IMG/VR virus record: IMGVR_UViG_2526164666_000046
Strand: one strand, 5' to 3'
DNA length: 26,551 nt
Source: a virus
Taxonomy: Duplodnaviria; Heunggongvirae; Uroviricota; Caudoviricetes
Positions 2,700 through 19,650 of the stretch are shown one piece after another. The notes beneath the pieces are model-generated. The model did not search any database, was not told where the DNA came from, and was given only the letters and a program-made list of their open reading frames with translations. The position numbers were made by a program, and so were the translations under genes. How positions within the stretch are numbered: the stretch's first letter is position 1; each line of letters begins with the position of its first letter.

Positions 2700-2925
2700 C
2701 GAATTTCTCCCGTGTACAGGAACAGAGTTAAAAAGCGGAACCGGAATCAAATTACAGGATGGCCATCTGCCAGTGGCTGGTCGTAAAAAAAAGGCCAACG
2801 CCATGCGCAGCCGGAAATAAAGGGATAACGATGATAGTTTGAGAAAAACAGAAACAACACTTTTGTGGCAAAGCATGGTGCCGGGTGCCTCCCGGTGAAT
2901 TCAGTATCAGCACCTGAATCCGCGA

Positions 2926-3577
2926 TTATCCCATATACCTGGTTGCTGATCGCCCCTCCGCACAGGGGGATTCACCATGCAGTAGTATTTTTAATAAACA
3001 GTAAACAAAAAAATCAAGCATTATGCAGGCTGTTTCTTTTATCACCGGCCACAGCAATACCACAATGCCGCAGACCAGCACCCCATCCGCCAGCACCGAC
3101 ATGATTCTGCTGGTGAAATCCACCATCACCACCAGAAACAGCAGGAGTGCAGCCACAGCCAGGCGCAGTTTTACCGCACAGGTGATTCTCCAGACGAAGA
3201 CCCAGAACACCGGCAATCTCTTCCAGCACCTTGCGCTCTTCCGGCTCAATTTCGCCGTCTGCCTCCGCAATGGCCACCGCCACATCCAGCACATCTTCCG
3301 CTTCACGCGTATCGTGTTTCACATCCTCGATCTCACGTAACGCCGCACGACGTACCATTTAAGTTCGTATCCAGCTGACCGATAATGGTTGCGCTAATCG
3401 CATTAATTTCTGACGTAAACGCGGACAGCGCAGGCTGATTACGCAGTACCTGTTCGATCTTCGCTTTCTAGGAAGCCTCACATTCACCATCTGCACAGGC
3501 CACCAGGTAGGCAGCATTAATAACCGCCTGTGCCAGATCGCGTTTCTCAAACTTTCCTTTTTCCGGTTAACATGACA
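2926..3577 (-). pseudogene. Decayed TerB-domain (tellurite-resistance TerB-like) gene followed by a hydrophobic segment
   Basis: TerB-like sequence is split over three frames: ...KGKFEKRDLAQAVINAAYLVACADGECEAS, in-frame TAG (plus 3468-3470), KAKIEQVLRNQPALSAFTSEINAISATIIGQLDTN, frameshift near 3340-3358, VRRAALREIEDVKHDTREAEDVLDVAVAIAEADGEIEPEERKVLEEIAGVLGLRLEN, then another shift into a transmembrane-like stretch (2926..3306 ORF). No intact start codon. Confidence 0.5.
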
Positions 3578-10131: not shown

Positions 10132-10364
10132 GCTGCACCTCCGAGATGCTTCATGTTTTTTCCGGAGCAAAAGGCTATAAGCGGCATACTGACGCGGTAA
10201 TTACGGCCCAGCGGTTCACAAATCACCTTCTGACATTCACGGTCCACCAGGCTAACACGTAGAACATGCCCTGCAGGCGTGGTGTACCACTGCCCAACTG
10301 TAGGAATTGATGTTTTTTTACGCTGAAATAAACGGTAAATGTTGAGGATCAACGGATTAAGCAT
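10128..10364 (-). CDS. Hypothetical small phage protein (78 aa)
   Basis: ORF translationally coupled between the 278-aa gene and the O-like gene; no recognisable motif. Confidence 0.3.
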   Translation of the reverse strand: MLNPLILNIYRLFQRKKTSIPTVGQWYTTPAGHVLRVSLVDRECQKVICEPLGRNYRVSMPLIAFCSGKNMKHLGGAA

Positions 10365-11193
10365 GACGATGCCCTCCGCTGATATTCAGGAGACGGTGAA
10401 TATGAAAATTAGCCTTATCCGCCAGACGAATACGTTCAGCCTGCAAGTTAAGAAGGGTTTCTACCAGAACCTGATGCGCCTGCGGATCCGAAAGAGTTAC
10501 CTTGCGCAGAGCACGTAGTGCAGTTGTTACATAACTGAGTTTATGTAAGTCTTCATCATTCAGACGAGTGAGGGCTGGGGCAGTAGCCATGATGGCAGCC
10601 TCCTTGATCGGTGAAATACTTCCACCACCGGAAACGCCAATTTCGCTGGTGGTGAACTGAACGGGGTTGGCGTAACCGGTGATCAAGGAAACCGGCGCAT
10701 CTTTCGATGCCCCCGCCCAGCCCACCATAACTTTGATGTGAGCAAATGCGGACGATAAAAAAGACGCTGGCGCGTCATATATCGCCTTGATCAATTCCAG
10801 GACGCCAATCCCGGCACCCGCTTTATAAGGTGCCTGAACAGTGTAACGTCCCGGAATGGCAGAATCAATGTGCTGGTGGTCCTTCACACTCAACAAAATC
10901 ACGCCTGAATTTCCACAAAGGACTAAAGCACTCATGCGGGTAGTCTTTGCGAAGATAGATAACGCGCTGTGTTTCTGGCTCCCAACGAATAACATGGACA
11001 TAAAGCCCTCTTCCGTCACGAAACCAGCGGTTAAGTTCCTGCACAACTCGCCCCCCACAGTCAGGTAAAGTTCTCTGTGGTTACTTACAGCCAGGTGATT
11101 TGGTAATCTGCATTCATGCCGTAACAACAGGTGTTCAGCGACACTGACCACCAGCTGTTGCGACAAACGGTTATTTGCCGTTAAACTGTTCAT
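10357..11193 (-). CDS. Hypothetical early-region protein (278 aa), unknown function
   Basis: Long ORF in operon position between the YdaT-like gene and replication genes; GVSGGGS motif but no Walker A box; not assignable by eye. Confidence 0.45.
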   Translation of the reverse strand: MNSLTANNRLSQQLVVSVAEHLLLRHECRLPNHLAVSNHRELYLTVGGELCRNLTAGFVTEEGFMSMLFVGSQKHSALSIFAKTTRMSALVLCGNSGVILLSVKDHQHIDSAIPGRYTVQAPYKAGAGIGVLELIKAIYDAPASFLSSAFAHIKVMVGWAGASKDAPVSLITGYANPVQFTTSEIGVSGGGSISPIKEAAIMATAPALTRLNDEDLHKLSYVTTALRALRKVTLSDPQAHQVLVETLLNLQAERIRLADKANFHIHRLLNISGGHRHA

Positions 11194-12075: not shown

Positions 12076-12750
12076 ATGAAAACAGTCCATGACATCCGGC
12101 GGTCTAACGCCAGAAAACTGAGAGATGGTGTTGGCGGGAATTCTTCCTTTGCCACCATGATTGATCGCGAGCCAACCCAGACCAGCAGGTTTATGGGAGA
12201 TGGTGCTACTAAAAATATCGGTGACAGCATGGCACGGCACATCGAAAAATGTTTCGACCTGCCTGTCGGATGGCTTGATCAAGAACACCAGACCACGAAC
12301 ATCACAAAAAAACCTGATGTTTCAATCACTAACAAACAAATAACGTTAGTCCCTGTCATATCATGGGTACAGGCCGGAGCATGGAAAGAAGTTGGCTATT
12401 CTGAGGTTGATTTGAGCACAGCAGAAACTTATCCCTGCCCTGTACCCTGTGGCGAAATGACTTATATCTTGCGGGTGATTGGTGATTCAATGATTGATGA
12501 GTACCGCCCGGGAGACATGATTTTTGTTGATCCCGAAGTCCCTGCCTGCCACGGTGACGACGTTATTGCATTGATGCACGATACAGGCGAAACCACCTTC
12601 AAGCGATTGATAGAAGATGGAACACAGCGTTATCTCAAAGCATTAAACCCAAACTGGCCTGAGCCTTACATTAAGATTAACGGTAATTGCTCTATAATTG
12701 GTACAGTAATTTTCTCAGGAAAACCAAGAAGATACAAAATAAAGGCCTAA
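12076..12750 (+). CDS. CI-type prophage repressor (XRE HTH + S24 LexA-like autopeptidase)
   Basis: N-terminal HTH-like segment ending DLPVGWLD; C-terminal S24 domain with catalytic Ser (RVIGDSMIDEY) and Lys (TTFKRLI), implying RecA-stimulated self-cleavage. Confidence 0.85.
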   Translation: MKTVHDIRRSNARKLRDGVGGNSSFATMIDREPTQTSRFMGDGATKNIGDSMARHIEKCFDLPVGWLDQEHQTTNITKKPDVSITNKQITLVPVISWVQAGAWKEVGYSEVDLSTAETYPCPVPCGEMTYILRVIGDSMIDEYRPGDMIFVDPEVPACHGDDVIALMHDTGETTFKRLIEDGTQRYLKALNPNWPEPYIKINGNCSIIGTVIFSGKPRRYKIKA

Positions 12751-12762
12751 TCAATATTTATA

Positions 12763-12784
12763 ACCTGCTTCGGCAGGTTTTTTA
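12763..12784 (+). terminator. Intrinsic terminator after cI
   Basis: ACCTGC-TTCG-GCAGGT hairpin with a UUCG tetraloop followed by a T6 run, 13 nt after the cI stop. Confidence 0.6.
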
Positions 12785-12787
12785 TAC

Positions 12788-12820
12788 TTGACAATGTACC
12801 CTTGAGATACATAATGTATC
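12788..12820 (+). promoter_or_regulatory. pL-like early-left promoter with operator half-sites
   Basis: TTGACA (12788-12793), 16-nt spacer, CATAAT (12810-12815); overlapped by ATGTACC-CTTGA-GATACAT and GATACA-TAA-TGTATC inverted repeats. Confidence 0.45.
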
Positions 12821-13231
12821 TAAAAGAAACATGCCGCAGGCAAGATTAAACAAAATTTGGTTGTAACACGGCGTATGGCACATGCGTCGTTAGCGGTCTG
12901 GGGACGTTAAAGGGGACAATCCACTCCTTGCTCGGGCAAAAAAACCAGGTAGCCGGAATGTGCAAGTCAATGATGATGCTGATAAGACGCCTAACCAGCG
13001 CGGCGATCCGGTTTGACGCCTGGGAAGAGACCAGGGTGCAACGATGAGGGCATTTATGGAACCGCGACAAAGTGTGGTGCCGTAACTTGCTAAGTGCTCT
13101 CAGCGTTGTGGTAATCCGCGAAATGGCGCGGCGGTAAGTATGGCGGGGTTACTCTTTCCCCGTTGAGGACACCGGATTGTCAGGTTGACCATACGCCTGA
13201 GTGACAACCCCACCACAACAGCCACTGCTTT

Positions 13232-13278
13232 GGCGGTACCAGTTTGTACACTTGCTTCCGGCTGGTACCGCTCTTTTT
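13232..13278 (+). terminator. Hairpin + T-tract (terminator or structured RNA element) in the long pL leader
   Basis: GGTACCAG (13235-13242) / 19-nt loop / CTGGTACC (13262-13269) followed by GCTCTTTTT (13270-13278). Confidence 0.4.
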
Positions 13279-13416
13279 ACAAAACAGAGAAGAGCATCAC
13301 CGGACGACGGGCTCATAACCCAATCCAGCCGGGCGGCTGCCACCGCAGGTGTTCTTCTCTGTTTTGTGGAGAAACCAACCGACCTTGCAGGGTCGATATG
13401 ATGAGGAGCAGCAAAA

Positions 13417-13778
13417 TGGCTAGCGAACGCAGTACTGATGTGCAGGCATTTATCGGGGAGCTGGACGGCGGCGTATTTGAAACCAAAATCGGCGCAGTTC
13501 TCAGTGAAGTCGCTTCCGGTGTGATGAACACGAAAACCAAAGGTAAGGTCTCGCTCAACCTGGAAATCGAACCGTTTGATGAGAACCGTGTGAAAATCAA
13601 ACACAAACTCTCATATGTTCGCCCGACTAACCGCGGGAAAATTTCCGAAGAAGACACCACCGAAACGCCGATGTATGTCAATCGCGGTGGTCGACTGACT
13701 ATTCTGCAGGAAGACCAGGGACAATTACTGACTCTTGCCGGTGAACCTGACGGAAAACTCCGCGCAGCAGGTCATTAA
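13417..13778 (+). CDS. Hypothetical early-left protein (120 aa)
   Basis: ATG at 13417 preceded by GAGGAG 7 nt upstream (MASERSTDVQAFIGELDGG...); the track ORF's 5' extension to 13185 lacks an RBS and crosses the hairpin. Confidence 0.45.
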
Positions 13779-14680: not shown

Positions 14681-14702
14681 AAATGCCCCTGCGGGGGCAT
14701 TT
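14681..14702 (+). terminator. Hairpin after the YfdQ-like gene (weak terminator)
   Basis: AAATGCCCC-TGCG-GGGGCATTT perfect inverted repeat; weak T-tract after it. Confidence 0.35.
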
Positions 14703-14796: not shown

Positions 14797-15333
14797 ATGT
14801 CATTTATTAAAACTTTTTCCGGGAAGCATTTTTATTATGACAAGATAAATAAAGACGACATCGTGATTAACGATATCGCAGTTTCCCTTTCAAATATCTG
14901 TCGCTTTGCAGGACATCTTTCACACTTCTACAGTGTCGCCCAGCATGCGGTGCTTTGCAGCCAGCTGGTGCCGCAGGAATTTGCTTTTGAAGCGTTAATG
15001 CATGATGCAACAGAAGCATATTGCCAGGACATCCCCGCGCCACTGAAACGACTTCTTCCTGACTATAAACGGATGGAAGAAAAAATAGACGCCGTAATCC
15101 GTGAGAAATACGGGTTACCTCCTGTTATGAGCACGCCAGTGAAATATGCCGATCTCATCATGCTGGCAACCGAACGCCGCGATCTCGGACTTGATGATGG
15201 CTCTTTCTGGCCTGTATTGGAAGGTATCCCGGCAACAGAGATGTTCAAAGTGATTCCACTGGCACCGGGCCATGCCTACGGGATGTTTATGGAACGCTTC
15301 AACGAGTTATCGGAATTACGCAAATGTGCATAA
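14797..15333 (+). CDS. yfdR: HD-domain phosphohydrolase (YfdR-like 5'-deoxynucleotidase, 178 aa)
   Basis: HD motif context ...SVAQHAVLCSQL... and downstream ...EALMHDATEAYCQDIP; start at MSFIKTF (14797). Confidence 0.65.
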   Translation: MSFIKTFSGKHFYYDKINKDDIVINDIAVSLSNICRFAGHLSHFYSVAQHAVLCSQLVPQEFAFEALMHDATEAYCQDIPAPLKRLLPDYKRMEEKIDAVIREKYGLPPVMSTPVKYADLIMLATERRDLGLDDGSFWPVLEGIPATEMFKVIPLAPGHAYGMFMERFNELSELRKCA

Positions 15334-16202
15334 CTCATGTAGTTAGTTTTTCTGGCGGGAGAACATCTGCATATCTTGTTCACCTGATGGAAGAACAAAG
15401 AAAGGCTGGCAATAACGTCTGCTACATCTTTATGGATACCGGTTGCGAACATCCGCTGACATACCGCTTTATTCGGGAGGTTTTGAAGTTCTGGGGCATA
15501 CCGCTAACTGTGTTGCAGGTCGATATAAATCCAGAGCTTGGGCAGCCAAATGGTTATACGGAATGGGAACCAAAGGATATTCAGACGCGAATGCCGGTGC
15601 TTAAACCGTTTATGGACATGGTTAAAAAGTACGGTACGCCATACATCGGCGGCGCATTCTGTACTGACAGGCTAAAACTCACCCCTTTCACGAAATATTG
15701 CGATGACCATTTTGGGCGAGGGAATTACATCACATGGCTCGGTATTCGTGCGGACGAACCCCGTAGGCTGAAACCGAAACCTGGCGTCCGGTATCTTGCC
15801 GAGCTGTCAGATTTTGATAAGTCGGATGTTATCCGGTGGTGGCAAAAACAACCTTTTGATTTGCAAATCCCGGAGCACCTCGGGAACTGTGTTTTTTGCA
15901 TCAAAAAGTCAACGCAAAAGCTGGGGCTTGCATGTAAAGACGAACCTGGTCTGATGCGGGTTTTTAATGAACTGGTTACAGGCAAACACGTCAGGGATGG
16001 TCATCGCAGAACAGGTAAAGACGTTATGTACCGTGGTCACCTGACGCTTGACGGGATTGCCAGAATGTATGCCGACAGCGACTACAGAAGTTTGTATCAG
16101 GCGATGGTGCTGGCCAAGCGGTTTGATACTGGTTCGTGTTCCGAATCATGTGAAATCTGGGGTGACCAATTGGAGTTGAAATTCGAAGAGGTCGTGGCAT
16201 GA
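15324..16202 (+). CDS. PAPS-reductase-like PP-loop protein (phage-type, 292 aa)
   Basis: N-terminal PP-loop VVSFSGGRTSAYLV (SGGxxS) and length typical of the phosphoadenosine-phosphosulfate reductase superfamily; overlaps the HD gene by 10 nt. Confidence 0.7.
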   Translation: MCITHVVSFSGGRTSAYLVHLMEEQRKAGNNVCYIFMDTGCEHPLTYRFIREVLKFWGIPLTVLQVDINPELGQPNGYTEWEPKDIQTRMPVLKPFMDMVKKYGTPYIGGAFCTDRLKLTPFTKYCDDHFGRGNYITWLGIRADEPRRLKPKPGVRYLAELSDFDKSDVIRWWQKQPFDLQIPEHLGNCVFCIKKSTQKLGLACKDEPGLMRVFNELVTGKHVRDGHRRTGKDVMYRGHLTLDGIARMYADSDYRSLYQAMVLAKRFDTGSCSESCEIWGDQLELKFEEVVA

Positions 16203-18310: not shown

Positions 18311-18520
18311 GTGGGGCTGGATTGCGTACCTATATCAACCTACTGCCGCAACGCGGGAGAAACGGTTGATGCCGTTAACAAACGGATACAAAGAGGAATA
18401 TGGAAAGAAGGGGTACATGTATTAAAAGTCGACGGGGTTAAAGAGCGTTGGGTCGACTTAATAGAGGTTTCAAAATGGGCAAGAAAGAACAAGGATTATT
18501 ATCTCTGCCAAGAGGAGTAA
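18311..18520 (+). CDS. Excisionase-like protein (Xis)
   Basis: Small winged-helix-like ORF (…VDAVNKRIQRGIWKEGVHVLKVDGVKERWVDLIEVSKW…) immediately upstream of and overlapping the integrase gene; GTG start with GAGGTG RBS. Confidence 0.5.
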   Translation: MGLDCVPISTYCRNAGETVDAVNKRIQRGIWKEGVHVLKVDGVKERWVDLIEVSKWARKNKDYYLCQEE

Positions 18521-19650
18521 CTATTCGTAAGCATAAAACTGCTTCAACACTAGTTATCACTTTCACATATAAAGGGGTTCTTTGCAGGGAGCCCCTATCT
18601 CGGCTTGAGGCAAATACACGTGGTATAAAATATGCTGAGCGCCTGCTAGGGGAGATACAAAATCAGATCGCCAGCGGAACGTTTGAATATGCGAAATATT
18701 TCCCCAATTCCAAAAAACTGGAGTTATTCGGTGTAGTAAAGAAAACCAAAAATATTAAGTCCTATCTTGATGAATACCTGAAAATTTGCATAAACCGTAA
18801 TCTGTCGCCGTCAACCATTGGCGGTTACGAAAAATGTCTATCAGCACTATCAGAACTACATAAACTACATGTAACAGAATTGACGCCTGCGATACTAAAA
18901 AATTGGATAGCCAGCCGAAAAACTAAGCTGAAAACAATCAGGAATAACCTGTCATTTCTGCGCAGCGCCATTGATGAAGCTGTTACGGATGGCCTGCTGA
19001 CCATTAACCCGGTAACCCTCGTCAGCGCCAGCCGGTACCACGTGATCGACAGTAGCCCGAGCGCCGACGATTACGAGGTTGACCCGTTCACGCCAGCGGA
19101 GACCCTTGCCATTTACCAGAGCTGCAGGTACAGGGAATGGGAAAACCTGTTCCGCTTTGCTTTCAATACAGGTCTGCGGAGCTCAGAACTGTGCGCGCTG
19201 CGCTGGGCTGATCTCGACACCATCGCGAACACAGCCCACGTTCAGGCGGCCAGTGTCGTAGGGGTACTTAAAGGCACCAAGACAAAAGCCGGTACCCGTA
19301 AGGTGGAGCTGAACAGTGAGGCGCTGGCAGCCCTGCAGGCGCAGAAGCAATACACCTTTATGAAAAGTGAGTTCATATTCAGCGATCCGAAAACGGGAGA
19401 ACCCTGGACGAACGCCGACGCTATCCGTAAAAAAGCATGGGTGCCGACCCTGAAAAAAGCTGGTGTGCGCTACCGTAACCCGTACCAGACGCGCCACACA
19501 TTCGCCACCAGACACATTAGCCAGGGTGTAAACCTTTTCTGGCTTGCCGGGCAGATGGGGCATAAGGGGCCGGAAATGCTGTTCCGCAATTACGGTAAAT
19601 ACCTGGCTGAATACGATGGTAAAACGTCTATAAATGTTGTGTCAAGCTGA
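18475..19650 (+). CDS. Lambda-type tyrosine integrase with N-terminal arm-binding domain
   Basis: Catalytic-domain pattern ...LRSSELCALRWADLD..., ...RHTFATRHISQGVNLFWLAGQMGHKGPEMLFRNYGKYL (R..H..R..Y region); terminal position in the early-left operon after xis. Confidence 0.85.
   Translation: MGKKEQGLLSLPRGVTIRKHKTASTLVITFTYKGVLCREPLSRLEANTRGIKYAERLLGEIQNQIASGTFEYAKYFPNSKKLELFGVVKKTKNIKSYLDEYLKICINRNLSPSTIGGYEKCLSALSELHKLHVTELTPAILKNWIASRKTKLKTIRNNLSFLRSAIDEAVTDGLLTINPVTLVSASRYHVIDSSPSADDYEVDPFTPAETLAIYQSCRYREWENLFRFAFNTGLRSSELCALRWADLDTIANTAHVQAASVVGVLKGTKTKAGTRKVELNSEALAALQAQKQYTFMKSEFIFSDPKTGEPWTNADAIRKKAWVPTLKKAGVRYRNPYQTRHTFATRHISQGVNLFWLAGQMGHKGPEMLFRNYGKYLAEYDGKTSINVVSS

What the first reader, a model, noticed from the sequence alone, without database searches (positions are those of the whole stretch)
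12751..13416. About 600-bp ORF-free leader after pL with a long hairpin: N-independent antitermination element or ncRNA?
Between the cI terminator/pL-like promoter and the first plausible early-left ORF (13417) there is no credible coding sequence (only reading frames of 13 codons or fewer with starts), and no Arg-rich N-like protein is encoded anywhere nearby. The region is GC-balanced and contains a 9-bp-stem hairpin with a T-tract (13232-13278). Lambdoid phages lacking N sometimes use cis-acting RNA antiterminators (HK022 put-type) in this position, or the region may encode a regulatory RNA.
Basis: partly seen in the sequence, partly recalled or inferred. Interest (0 to 1): 0.5.

Follow-up and report, generated by a model that had tools for sequence, protein, structure and literature searches.

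The report
Two conserved structured RNAs in prophage leader
The "empty" 600-base stretch after the prophage's leftward early promoter is a mosaic of two conserved, folded, non-coding RNA elements separated by a transcription terminator; both are common in E. coli prophages, absent from the RNA family catalogue, and of untested function.

Summary
The leader is real and non-coding, but it is not an empty spacer. It holds:
- **Module A (12869-13111):** a ~245-nt multi-helix RNA.
- **Variable cassette (13113-13209).**
- **Intrinsic terminator (13232-13278).**
- **Module B (13279-13395):** a three-way-junction RNA that starts at the last U of the terminator, followed by a GGAGAAAC tail and a small hairpin just before the yfdP ribosome-binding site.

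Both modules show compensatory base-pair changes across Enterobacterales phages: B has 11 covarying pairs and 98% pairing; A has 10 covarying pairs. Neither shows a coding signature or any Rfam match. Near-identical copies occur in 23% (A) and 46% (B) of complete E. coli genomes, unannotated.

Neither module resembles the HK022 or HK639 put antiterminator RNAs. B always lies downstream of a terminator. Variant copies also lie between Q antiterminator genes and holin genes in late operons. Elsewhere A is fused directly to phage tRNA genes. B's conserved loop is identical over 14 nt to the anticodon stem-loop of initiator tRNA.

My best reading (about 0.35): pL transcripts either stop at the terminator, releasing an A-containing RNA, or read through. 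In read-through transcripts B acts in cis as a processing and expression module. Put-like antitermination and a tRNA-mimic decoy role remain open.

The parts
12762..12779 (+). Intrinsic terminator after the cI-like repressor gene
   Evidence: 7-bp GC-rich stem, 4-nt loop, T-run. Annotated as a terminator in phages Ayreon and SfV.
12788..12815 (+). pL-like sigma-70 promoter (TTGACA-16-CATAAT), immunity-specific
   Evidence: 11 of 12 consensus matches. Annotated as a promoter in Ayreon. Homology with phages of other immunity types only begins at 12849.
12869..13111 (+). Module A: ~245-nt conserved structured RNA. H1 hairpin 12869-12889 (GCA loop); conserved blocks 12948-12969 and 12994-13017; H4 hairpin 13019-13035 (loop GAAGAGA); 3' long stem 13039-13052 with 13093-13111, ending in GUUGUGG
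   Evidence: RNAalifold on 18 diverse copies gives 31 pairs, 10 with compensatory changes. No coding signature. The defining pattern occurs in at least 120 IMG/VR contigs. Present in 1259 of 5426 complete E. coli genomes, unannotated. In other phages it is fused directly to tRNA-Arg(UCU) genes.
13113..13209 (+). Variable cassette between A and the terminator, flanked by GUUGUGG (13105-13111) and CCACAAC (13213-13219)
   Evidence: Replaced by unrelated sequence in otherwise ~99% identical leaders such as L153, L100 and L040. In relatives this slot holds tRNAs, tRNA-like hairpins or other modules.
13232..13278 (+). Intrinsic terminator (stem 13232-13242 with 13262-13271, U-run 13272-13278), physically coupled to module B
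   Evidence: -21 kcal/mol hairpin plus UCUUUUU. 35 of 39 non-redundant B copies have a hairpin plus a run of at least 4 T ending exactly at P1, although the stem sequences differ. There is no T-run on the minus strand.
13279..13367 (+). Module B core: three-way junction. P1 13279-13296 with 13350-13367; P2 with conserved loop 13305-13326; P3 13333-13346
   Evidence: 37 non-redundant copies: 30 pairs, 98.3% of cells paired against 38-58% in slid controls, 11 pairs with compensatory changes, 0 of 500 shuffles reach the observed values. The covariance model R1 scores 114 bits (E = 3e-27) on the + strand and 37 bits on the - strand. G.U pairs fit the + strand only.
13308..13321 (+). P2 apical hairpin CGGGCUCAUAACCC, identical to the anticodon stem-loop of E. 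coli initiator tRNA-fMet
   Evidence: 14 contiguous identical nt against metZ. Loops seen in unbiased copies: CUCAUAA, CUCAUUA, CUCAUUC, GUCAUAA. UCAU is invariant.
13368..13379 (+). Conserved single-stranded tail GGAGAAAC(C/U)AAC after P1
   Evidence: Near-invariant in long-form copies. Could extend P1 by pairing with the U-run, but that evidence is weak.
13380..13395 (+). P4 hairpin (CGACC-UUGCAG-GGUCG) with NGCA loop, directly before the ribosome-binding site
   Evidence: 27 of 32 long-form copies have a hairpin here with GCAG at the loop. Stems covary and the downstream gene varies.
13403..13778 (+). Shine-Dalgarno GAGGAG (13403-13408) and yfdP (ATG 13416 to stop 13778), first gene of the early-left operon (yfdP, yfdQ/DUF2303, yfdR ... 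integrase 18448-19650)

Best explanation
The leader is a modular non-coding RNA region, not a spacer.

**Shown**
1. Transcription from the pL-like promoter first produces module A, a ~245-nt conserved, highly structured RNA. Elsewhere A is a stand-alone unit or a 5' leader fused to phage tRNA genes.
2. A swappable cassette follows, then a strong intrinsic terminator.
3. Module B begins at the last U of that terminator. It comprises a conserved three-way junction, the GGAGAAAC tail and the P4 hairpin, and it runs into the ribosome-binding site of whichever gene comes first.

**Inferred**
- The terminator attenuates pL transcription and releases a discrete A-containing RNA of about 450 nt. This would parallel how pR'-tR' leaders give sRNAs such as StxS and STnc100.
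- Polymerases that read through make B, so B exists only on read-through transcripts.
- B acts in cis as a post-terminator 5'-UTR module. It is a tRNA-like or long-helix structure that directs endonucleolytic processing (RNase P at the foot of P1, or RNase III within the 18-25-bp P1). That would detach the upstream RNA with its hairpin-plus-oligo-U end and leave a defined, structured, Rho-resistant 5' end that presents the first cistron for translation.
- B is therefore a portable operon-head cassette. It is used behind the first terminator of both the early-left operon of N-less lambdoid phages and Q-dependent late operons.

The structural and non-coding part of this statement is about 0.9 likely. 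The processing and expression mechanism is about 0.35.
For: **Structure and conservation**
- Covariation for B and for A.
- The + strand is favoured by G.U pairs and by model scores.
- No coding signal.

**Terminator coupling**
- A hairpin plus T-run ends exactly at P1 in 35 of 39 copies, despite different stem sequences.

**B behaves as a 5'-UTR element**
- No terminator follows B.
- P4 followed by a Shine-Dalgarno and a start codon is kept although the first gene differs: yfdP-like, MFNPFFK-type, MKLPKF-type, yfdR.

**Same layout in late operons**
- B-type copies lie between Q genes (PF03589, PF06530, PF06323) and holin or lysozyme genes, again behind a hairpin plus T-run.

**tRNA link**
- A abuts tRNA-Arg genes with only 2-3 nt between.
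- tRNAs and T-loop-like hairpins occupy the slot between A and the terminator in relatives.
- The B loop equals the tRNA-fMet anticodon stem-loop.
- Short forms end P1 with GCCA or GCCU.

**Other**
- P1 is predicted as 25 consecutive pairs in the window, which is RNase III substrate length by established knowledge.
- A and B are independent modules.
Against: - No transcript ends, cleavage sites or expression data were available. Every functional step is inferred.
- Short-form B copies have a P1 of only 6-8 bp, too short for RNase III. The near-invariant P2 loop and junction suggest a specific binding partner rather than a mere processing helix.
- B lacks D and T arms, and ARAGORN does not call it a tRNA, so RNase P recognition is speculative.
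- Long forms lack a CCA-like 3' tail.
- The model does not explain how polymerase passes the terminator in phages that lack both N and module A, such as SfV.
- The sampling of loci was biased, because they were seeded by exact motifs.
Confidence: 0.35

Rival explanations
1. Put-like, N-independent processive antitermination. Nascent module A, and possibly B, binds the elongating RNA polymerase and makes it resistant to the terminator at 13232-13278 and to downstream intrinsic or Rho-dependent terminators. This would allow expression of yfdP through int without an N protein.
For: - Phages of this group lack N (PMC3851460; PMC12315714). The latter paper explicitly speculates that put-like RNA operates in yfdP/yfdQ-type phages.
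- A lies about 50 nt after the predicted start of the pL transcript and upstream of a strong terminator that must be passed.
- A and B are conserved, structured and promoter-proximal, like put.
- The long untranslated leader would otherwise be exposed to Rho.
Against: - No homology to the HK022 or HK639 put RNAs, and a different architecture.
- B is always downstream of its terminator. It also occurs in late operons that already have Q.
- No copy lies behind pR in this window.
- 90 of 165 B copies have no A upstream, although the terminator is still there.
- In TL-2011b, A is a small stand-alone promoter-A-tRNA unit rather than the head of a long operon.
- No strong intrinsic terminators were found inside the yfdP-int operon.
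Confidence: 0.2
2. Trans-acting RNAs. A is a stable non-coding RNA released by termination or by RNase P. B's cap is a tRNA-fMet anticodon-arm mimic. They would act as decoys, sponges or sensors for host factors such as anticodon nucleases (for example VapC), the 30S P site with IF3, or MetRS. The leader would then be an RNA-based host-takeover or anti-defence island at the first-transcribed position of the phage.
For: - 14-nt identity to the tRNA-fMet anticodon stem-loop, with invariant UCAU.
- A has its own promoter-like sequence and a tRNA fused at its 3' end in TL-2011b-type phages.
- Both ends of A lie in helices, as in stable RNAs.
- The slot is hypervariable and modular, with tRNAs and tRNA-like hairpins, as expected for arms-race loci.
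- The early-left region of lambdoid phages is a known anti-defence hotspot (established knowledge).
Against: - B has no terminator of its own and is tied to the start of the first cistron.
- Loop positions 37 and 38 vary to U and C, unlike real tRNAs.
- No target or binding partner was identified.
- A 14-nt identity noticed after the fact could be convergence on a stable GGG/CCC hairpin.
Confidence: 0.15
3. Riboswitch-like or protein-operated translational control. The B three-way junction would be an aptamer or protein-binding site. Its state would set accessibility of the downstream ribosome-binding site through the tail and P4.
For: - A three-way junction with a near-invariant loop and junction lies immediately upstream of the Shine-Dalgarno.
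- In short forms, P1 is short enough to switch. In L064 its 3' strand (CCGCC) can pair with GGCGG next to the Shine-Dalgarno.
- NGCA-loop hairpins recur (P3, P4 and H1 of A), which suggests a common binding protein.
Against: - The long-form P1 (18-25 bp) is far too stable to switch.
- No conserved alternative pairing with the ribosome-binding site was found across copies.
- The first genes are functionally unrelated, so there is no obvious ligand logic.
- No Rfam riboswitch match, even at E up to 10.
Confidence: 0.1
4. The region encodes a small N-like or other protein that was missed, or its conservation reflects DNA-level sites such as recombination junctions or protein-binding sites rather than RNA.
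For: - Mechanical ORFs of 39-74 aa exist, and some phage records annotate them.
- Repeated CACAAC/GTTGTG motifs lie at module boundaries and could be recombination junctions.
Against: - No codon periodicity. Indels are not multiples of three. The longest ORF changes frame and strand between homologues.
- No Pfam hit for the 74-aa and 66-aa ORFs.
- Compensatory changes with strand-specific G.U pairs indicate selection on RNA.
Confidence: 0.03

Closest known systems
HK022 putL/putR and HK639 putL-like antiterminator RNAs
   Same: Cis-encoded structured RNA in the early operon leader of lambdoid phages that lack a functional N antiterminator. Module A, like putL, lies between pL and the first terminator.
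   Different: No sequence or structure homology. Put is ~70 nt (126 nt annotated in HK639) with two stem-loops placed directly after the promoter. Here there is a 245-nt multi-helix RNA and a three-way junction that lies behind a terminator. There is one copy, none behind pR, and B also occurs in Q-dependent late operons.
pR'-tR' leader sRNAs of lambdoid prophages (lambda 6S RNA, StxS, STnc100/PasD)
   Same: A promoter-proximal leader ends at an intrinsic terminator, and early termination can yield a discrete RNA. An STnc100 copy is present in this window's late region. STnc100-like sequence (CACCGGGAGGCACCCGGCACCA) lies just upstream of B's terminator in SfV-type leaders.
   Different: Those are short RNAs (about 70-200 nt) from late-operon leaders. 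Module A is larger, lies in the early-left leader, and has no Rfam match. The post-terminator element B has no described counterpart.
tRNA-like structures used as processing signals (RNase P substrates such as the P1/P7 C4 RNA precursor, intercistronic tRNA-like sites, mascRNA)
   Same: B has an acceptor-like closing helix and an arm that carries an exact tRNA-fMet anticodon stem-loop. Short forms end in GCCA or GCCU. It lies in the same leader slots where phage tRNA genes are found.
   Different: No D or T arm, and not called by ARAGORN or the Rfam tRNA model. P1 is 18-25 bp in long forms. Cleavage is untested.
RNase III sites in phage leaders (lambda N-leader site, T7 early intercistronic sites) and rRNA processing stems
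   Same: A long, near-perfect helix in an untranslated leader immediately before a cistron, enclosing a structured cap as in the 16S and 23S processing stems.
   Different: The conserved loop, junction and tail are not needed for RNase III. Short-form copies have helices too short to be substrates.
Lambda nut sites (boxA/boxB) with N
   Same: Position in the pL leader. Hairpin H4 of module A (CCUGG-GAAGAGA-CCAGG) has a purine-rich GAAGA-containing loop reminiscent of nutL boxB.
   Different: No N-like ORF. The loop is 7 nt rather than 5. There is no conserved boxA: the CGCUCUUUUUACAA at the terminator is specific to this window and not conserved.

Membership tests
put antiterminator RNA (HK022/HK639) | Sequence and secondary-structure homology to put (two stem-loops, ~70 nt) | tested here: not met
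   The R1 covariance model finds nothing in the HK022 loci (best 16.8 bits, E = 0.075, at an unrelated place) or at the HK639 putL-like RNA (best 10 bits, E = 0.85). nhmmer with A and B profiles gives E > 0.3. B is a three-way junction and A is a multi-helix RNA.
put antiterminator RNA (HK022/HK639) | Located just downstream of the early promoter and upstream of the terminators it suppresses | tested here: inconclusive
   Met for module A: it starts about 50 nt after the predicted pL start and lies upstream of the terminator at 13232-13278. Not met for module B, which is always directly downstream of a terminator.
put antiterminator RNA (HK022/HK639) | Copies in both early operons (putL and putR) | tested here: not met
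   Only one R1 hit in the 26.5-kb window with filters off. The next best is 11.5 bits, E = 0.6. HK639 itself has only putL annotated, so this feature is not strictly required.
put antiterminator RNA (HK022/HK639) | Suppresses termination in cis by binding the RNA polymerase beta' zinc-binding domain, without protein factors | not testable with these tools
   Needs in vivo or in vitro transcription assays and rpoC mutants.
Any Rfam 15 family | Covariance-model score at or above the gathering threshold | tested here: not met
   No hit in 12751-13416 at gathering threshold. At E up to 10 there are only chance-level hits of 21 bits or less. In 15 diverse related loci only tRNAs were found.
Lambda-type nut/N antitermination | N-like arginine-rich protein encoded after pL | tested here: not met
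   No conserved ORF in the leader. YfdP has no Pfam family and is not Arg-rich. The SfV group is reported to lack N.
Lambda-type nut/N antitermination | boxA followed by a boxB hairpin with a GNRA-like pentaloop | tested here: inconclusive
   H4 (13019-13035) has a conserved GAAGAGA loop with covarying stem. The loop is 7 nt and there is no conserved boxA nearby.
Intrinsic (Rho-independent) terminator | GC-rich hairpin followed directly by a U-run on the transcribed strand | tested here: met
   13232-13271 stem at -21 kcal/mol, followed by UCUUUUU. The feature is conserved in 35 of 39 copies with different stems. Termination efficiency was not tested.
tRNA / tRNA-like structure | Cloverleaf with D, anticodon and T arms and an acceptor stem | tested here: not met
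   ARAGORN finds no tRNA in the window and there is no Rfam tRNA hit. B has only an acceptor-like P1, an anticodon-like P2 and a small P3.
tRNA / tRNA-like structure | Anticodon stem-loop of 7 nt with U33 and a purine at position 37 | tested here: inconclusive
   The window loop CUCAUAA with a GGG/CCC stem is identical to metZ over 14 nt. Homologues have U at position 37 (CUCAUUA, CUCAUUC) or a 6-nt loop (GGGG-UCAUAA-CCCC).
RNase III processing site | About two turns (at least ~20 bp) of near-perfect double-stranded RNA | tested here: inconclusive
   P1 has 18 covariation-supported pairs, and 25 predicted with the U-run/GGAGA extension, in the window. Short-form homologues have only 6-8 bp. 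Cleavage was not tested.

The most novel reading that the evidence does not exclude
Module B is an initiator-tRNA anticodon-arm mimic made only on transcripts that have escaped the first terminator of a phage operon. Together with module A and the other swappable leader modules (tRNAs, tRNA-like hairpins, modules 'D' and 'E'), it would form an RNA-only host-takeover or anti-defence island at the first-transcribed position of N-less lambdoid phages. One possible role is as a decoy for tRNA-fMet-specific anticodon nucleases such as VapC. Another is as a ligand for the 30S P site with IF3 or for MetRS. Alternatively, A and B could be a new class of RNA polymerase-modifying antiterminator RNAs unrelated to put.
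Probability: 0.15. Interest if true: 0.85.

Novelty: new variant of a known kind. Interest (0 to 1): 0.6.

Why it matters
- **An open question becomes testable.** Lambdoid phages of the SfV/mEp460/cdtI/ST64B/LLS type have no N protein, and how they express their early-left operon (including xis and int) is unknown. A 2025 paper could only speculate about put-like RNA (PMC12315714). This analysis gives defined, covariation-supported RNA elements and a terminator with exact coordinates. They can be deleted, mutated and restored with compensatory changes.
- **The elements are very common but invisible.** Near-identical copies occur in 23% (A) and 46% (B) of complete E. coli genomes, with up to 5 copies per genome, plus many Enterobacterales genera. 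They are unannotated and absent from Rfam.
- **Three features are not described for any known leader RNA and suggest new biology at the transcription-processing-translation interface:** the fixed terminator-to-B junction; the occurrence of B behind tR'-like terminators in late operons; and the exact initiator-tRNA anticodon stem-loop.

If the elements turn out to be only processing signals, the practical result is better annotation and two new RNA families.

Tried and rejected
- **Rfam.** Searched at gathering threshold and at E up to 10 on the region, and at gathering threshold on 15 related loci. Only tRNAs, STnc100, C4 and isrK were found, all elsewhere.
- **Put homology.** A covariance model and HMMs against HK022 and HK639 gave nothing.
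- **Hidden protein.** ORFs of 39-74 aa were rejected on frame and strand inconsistency and lack of codon periodicity.
- **A protein gene upstream of B's terminator.** The conserved ...GCTGTGTGTAGTC looked like the end of a gene. It is not: upstream ORFs are unrelated junk.
- **Second copy of A or B behind pR or in the late region of this window.** None found.
- **Promoter inside the terminator or B.** No acceptable -35/-10 pair (and inspection).
- **boxA at the terminator.** CGCUCUUUUUACAA is specific to this window and is not conserved in homologues.
- **RfaH ops-like site in module A.** GGTAGCC does not fit the ops consensus, and the segment is base-paired in the RNA.
- **Pairing of the P2 loop with the yfdP ribosome-binding region.** The complementary blocks are in the wrong order for a helix (inspection).
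- **Strong intrinsic terminators inside the yfdP-int operon, which would demand antitermination.** Only a weak hairpin after yfdQ was found.
- **Literature.** Searches on yfdP, AgvB/AsxR, Pas sRNAs, SfV-group genomes and phage structured-RNA catalogues found no description of these elements. A bulk catalogue of 10,006 candidate viral RNAs (PMC10690425) may contain them unnamed.
Full report
**Setting.** The window is a lambdoid prophage of the SfV/cdtI/Ayreon/mEp460 type. The query region is 98.5-98.7% identical to phages cdtI and Ayreon.
- A cI-like repressor gene (12076-12750, Peptidase_S24) is transcribed rightward. It is followed by a terminator (12762-12779) and a near-consensus promoter, TTGACA-16-CATAAT (12788-12815).
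- cro-like, CII(CP76)-like and Ash-family genes run leftward.
- The first early-left gene is a homologue of E. coli K-12 yfdP. It is followed by yfdQ (DUF2303), yfdR, a PAPS-reductase-like gene and others, through to an integrase at 18448-19650.

**Check of the observation.**
- The hairpin with a T-tract is present at 13232-13278. It is stronger than described: a 10-13 bp stem at -21 kcal/mol, followed by UCUUUUU.
- The claim that only frames of 13 codons or fewer exist is mechanically wrong. There are ORFs of 39, 66 and 74 aa. None is credible.
- In diverged homologues the longest ORF changes frame and strand. Indels are of 1, 2, 4 and 5 nt. Substitutions show no third-position excess, for example 15/15/10 and 13/19/9.
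- No N-like protein is present. The related phages SfII, SfV and SfIV are reported to lack N, cII and cIII (PMC3851460).
- The + strand folds much better than shuffled controls, with z = -5.8 and -4.1.

**The leader is a mosaic.**
- Homology with phages of other immunity types starts at 12849, after the promoter and operator.
- A block from about 12868 to 13111 recurs in unrelated contexts, for example at 82% identity in phage TL-2011b.
- A block from 13230 to about 13395 is conserved at 70-88% DNA identity upstream of yfdP homologues in Mangrovibacter, Enterobacter, Leclercia, Kosakonia, Phytobacter, Atlantibacter and other genera. The YfdP protein itself is only 57-76% identical in those genomes.
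- Between the two blocks, 13113-13209 is a cassette. It is replaced by unrelated sequence in leaders that are otherwise about 99% identical.
- K-12 CPS-53 has lost everything except the last 20 bp.

- *Structure.* In 37 non-redundant sequences RNAalifold predicts a three-way junction:
  - P1, 18 pairs;
  - P2, which carries a near-invariant apical sequence ACGGGCUCAUAACCCAAUCC;
  - P3, which varies in sequence and length, including 45-nt structured insertions.
- *Covariation.*
  - 98.3% of cells are paired, against 38-58% when partners are slid by 1-3 columns.
  - 11 pairs show compensatory changes, in 66 cells.
  - None of 500 shuffles reaches these values.
- *Strand.* Frequent G.U pairs fit only the + strand. 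A covariance model (R1) scores 114 bits on + and 37 bits on -.
- *Downstream of P1.* P1 is followed by a conserved GGAGAAAC(U)AAC tail. A further hairpin (P4, 13380-13395) has covarying stems, and its loop contains GCAG in 27 of 32 copies. The ribosome-binding site of whichever gene comes first follows directly.
- *Variable first gene.* It can be yfdP-like, several unrelated genes, or yfdR where yfdP and yfdQ are deleted.
- *Terminator coupling.* In 35 of 39 non-redundant copies, a hairpin plus a run of at least 4 T ends exactly at the first base of P1. The hairpin sequences differ between lineages. The terminator is therefore an integral part of the module.

**Module A (12869-13111).** I collected copies with the pattern GTATGGCACATG-N45-75-GAATGTGCAAG, which matched at least 120 IMG/VR contigs before the cap.
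- The 5' domain has four helices. RNAalifold predicts 31 pairs, 10 of them with compensatory changes.
- They include H1 (CGGCG-UAUG-GCA-CAUG-CGUCG) and H4 (CCUGG-GAAGAGA-CCAGG).
- The 3' domain is a long stem, CAAC..GAGAGCA [variable insert] UGCUCUC..GUUGUGG.
- In TL-2011b and several IMG/VR phages, a tRNA-Arg(UCU) gene starts 2-3 nt after GUUGUG. A promoter-like TTGAAC-16-TATTTT lies just before H1. There A is a small stand-alone unit.
- In other phages the slot between A and the terminator holds tRNAs, a 126-nt tRNA with an insertion, T-loop-like hairpins, or further conserved modules that I call D and E.
- R1 also recognises the 3' domain of A in some phages at 24-35 bits (L177, L219, L190). 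In L176 and L177 that domain is followed by the B-type tail. The 3' domain of A and module B are therefore probably paralogous.
- A and B are independent. In my redundant, motif-seeded sample, 75 of 165 B copies have A upstream, and 39 of 114 A copies have no B downstream.

**Distribution and annotation.** At megablast level, A occurs in 1259 of 5426 complete E. coli genomes. B with its terminator and P4 occurs in 2492 of 5426, with up to 5 copies per genome. RefSeq gives no annotation, or only 'hypothetical protein'. Rfam 15 has no match at gathering threshold or at E up to 10.

**Comparison with put.** According to PMC9378689, HK022 put RNAs are about 70 nt with two stem-loops. putL lies directly after PL and putR about 270 nt after PR, and they act through the beta' zinc-binding domain.
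- R1 and nhmmer profiles of A and B find nothing in the HK022 region or at the annotated HK639 putL-like RNA.
- The window has a single copy of each module and nothing behind pR.
- B is always downstream of a terminator, so it cannot be what lets polymerase pass that terminator.
- Family membership is therefore rejected. Put-like function remains conceivable only for A, or for terminators further downstream.

**A decisive piece of context.** Short-P1 and variant B elements (L123, L064, L134, L136, L036, L087) lie between a Q antiterminator gene of three different Pfam families and holin or lysozyme genes. Each is again directly behind a hairpin plus T-run. One phage (L123) has a long B at the head of its early-left operon and a short B in its late leader.
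- B is thus a post-terminator element of operons whose expression depends on terminator read-through, including operons that already have Q.
- This lowers the probability that B is itself an antiterminator.
- It points instead to a role specific to read-through transcripts.

**tRNA likeness.**
- The apical hairpin of P2 (13308-13321, CGGGCUCAUAACCC) is identical over 14 nt to the anticodon stem-loop of E. coli initiator tRNA (metZ), including the three G-C pairs.
- Across copies that were not selected by this motif, UCAU is invariant. Positions 32, 37 and 38 vary (CUCAUUA, CUCAUUC, GGGG-UCAUAA-CCCC), so it is not a strict anticodon loop.
- In short forms P1 is followed by GCCA (L123, L134) or GCCU (L064, L036), which resembles a discriminator base plus CCA.
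- B has no D or T arm, and ARAGORN does not call it.

**Most likely mechanism.** The anatomy above is shown. What follows is inferred.
- The terminator attenuates pL transcription and yields a discrete A-containing RNA. This would parallel pR'-tR' leader RNAs such as StxS and STnc100. An STnc100 copy lies in this window's late region.
- Polymerases that read through synthesise B. B then acts in cis as a processing and expression module.
- Cleavage at the foot of P1 (RNase P, tRNA-like recognition) or within the long P1 (RNase III; 25 predicted consecutive pairs here) would detach the upstream RNA with its hairpin-plus-oligo-U end.
- It would leave a defined, fully structured and therefore Rho-poor 5' end that presents the first cistron.
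- This model accounts for the zero-distance terminator-P1 junction, the portability across first genes, the occurrence in both operon types, and the tRNA association.
- It does not account for the near-invariant P2 loop. It also does not explain how the terminator is passed in phages that lack both N and A.
- I put it at about 0.35. The rivals are put-like antitermination (about 0.2), trans-acting or decoy RNAs (about 0.15), riboswitch or protein-operated translational control (about 0.1), and coding or DNA-only explanations (about 0.03).

**Novelty and caveats.** No paper in the searchable library describes these elements. A 2025 study of phage LLS notes that yfdP/yfdQ-type lambdoids lack N and only speculates about put-like RNA. 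A bulk catalogue of candidate viral structured RNAs (PMC10690425) might include them unnamed. My samples were seeded with exact motifs and are redundant. Loop invariance is therefore partly by construction, and the co-occurrence counts are descriptive only. No expression data were available, so all functional statements are inference.

Noticed in passing
window 10645-10732 (-) and 10757-10833 (-): Rfam C4 antisense RNA (82 bits) and isrK (64 bits) hits lie inside the 278-aa Ash-family ORF 10357-11193 (-), which is annotated as 'immunity region' in SfV and Ayreon. This suggests a P1/Gifsy-type c4/isrK antisense-RNA and antirepressor (ImmI-like) module in the pR operon. That ORF call may be partly spurious.
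   Followed up: no
window 2837-3009 (-): STnc100 sRNA hit (103 bits), probably in the late-operon leader. Its 3' part (CACCGGGAGGCACCCGGCACCA) recurs just upstream of B's terminator in SfV-type early-left leaders (L004, L006, L009). Leader modules therefore seem to be shared between late and early-left operons.
   Followed up: partly
L123 12006-12060 (+), L064 1917-1971 (+), L134 14250-14304 (-), L136 7465-7517 (+), L036 104-187 (+), L087 7945-8059 (+): Short or variant B-type three-way junctions lie between Q antiterminator genes (three Pfam families) and holin or lysozyme genes, directly behind a tR'-like hairpin plus T-run. In short forms P1 is followed by GCCA or GCCU.
   Followed up: yes
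window 14684-14700 (+); L035, L048, L052, L056, L139: The hairpin after yfdQ (UGCCCCUGCGGGGGCA followed by UUUAU) resembles P4 of module B. In several IMG/VR contigs B is fused directly to this hairpin, with yfdP and yfdQ absent. That suggests recombination between similar intercistronic hairpins.
   Followed up: partly
L061, L027, L045, L105, L016, L032, L010, L099 (regions upstream of module B): Related leaders contain further conserved non-coding modules. 'D' is CACAAC-AUGGAAGCGCACUC...GGAGUGCGCUUCCAG-UUGUGA. 'E' is ...GGUCGACGCAAAGACCCG...CCAAUACCAAAACAGAGCGGCGGGAAGUAAGC...GGUGUCACAAC. A third module is GGCAGGACGCC..GUAGCCGCC..GGAUGAUUCG. None is in Rfam. CACAAC/GUUGUG motifs mark module boundaries.
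   Followed up: partly
L111 1800-1925 (+): A 126-nt Rfam tRNA hit (40 bits) with an insertion of about 50 nt lies in an early-left leader array. T-loop-like hairpins (GGUUCGAUUCC) are embedded in the variable inserts of A-type stems in L111, L045 and L039.
   Followed up: no
window 13105-13111 and 13213-13219: GUUGUGG at the end of module A and CCACAAC just before the terminator are perfectly complementary and bracket the variable cassette. They could form an alternative helix or serve as recombination junctions.
   Followed up: no
L022, L017/L018, L014 (genome contigs): Enterobacterial yfdP loci appear in assemblies labelled Chryseobacterium sp., Martelella alba and Fredinandcohnia humi. The last is a 240-bp contig at 100% identity. 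These are most likely contamination rather than real host range.
   Followed up: no
window 15324-16202 (+): [quoted passage not shown]
   Followed up: no
L029 2887-2990, L031 2899-2988 (Providencia): Upstream of Providencia yfdP homologues, the B position is occupied by a terminator plus a long simple hairpin (R1 21-26 bits). It has a divergent loop (CAGUUCAUA...CUAAUC) and no clear three-way junction. It may be a distant or degenerate relative.
   Followed up: partly
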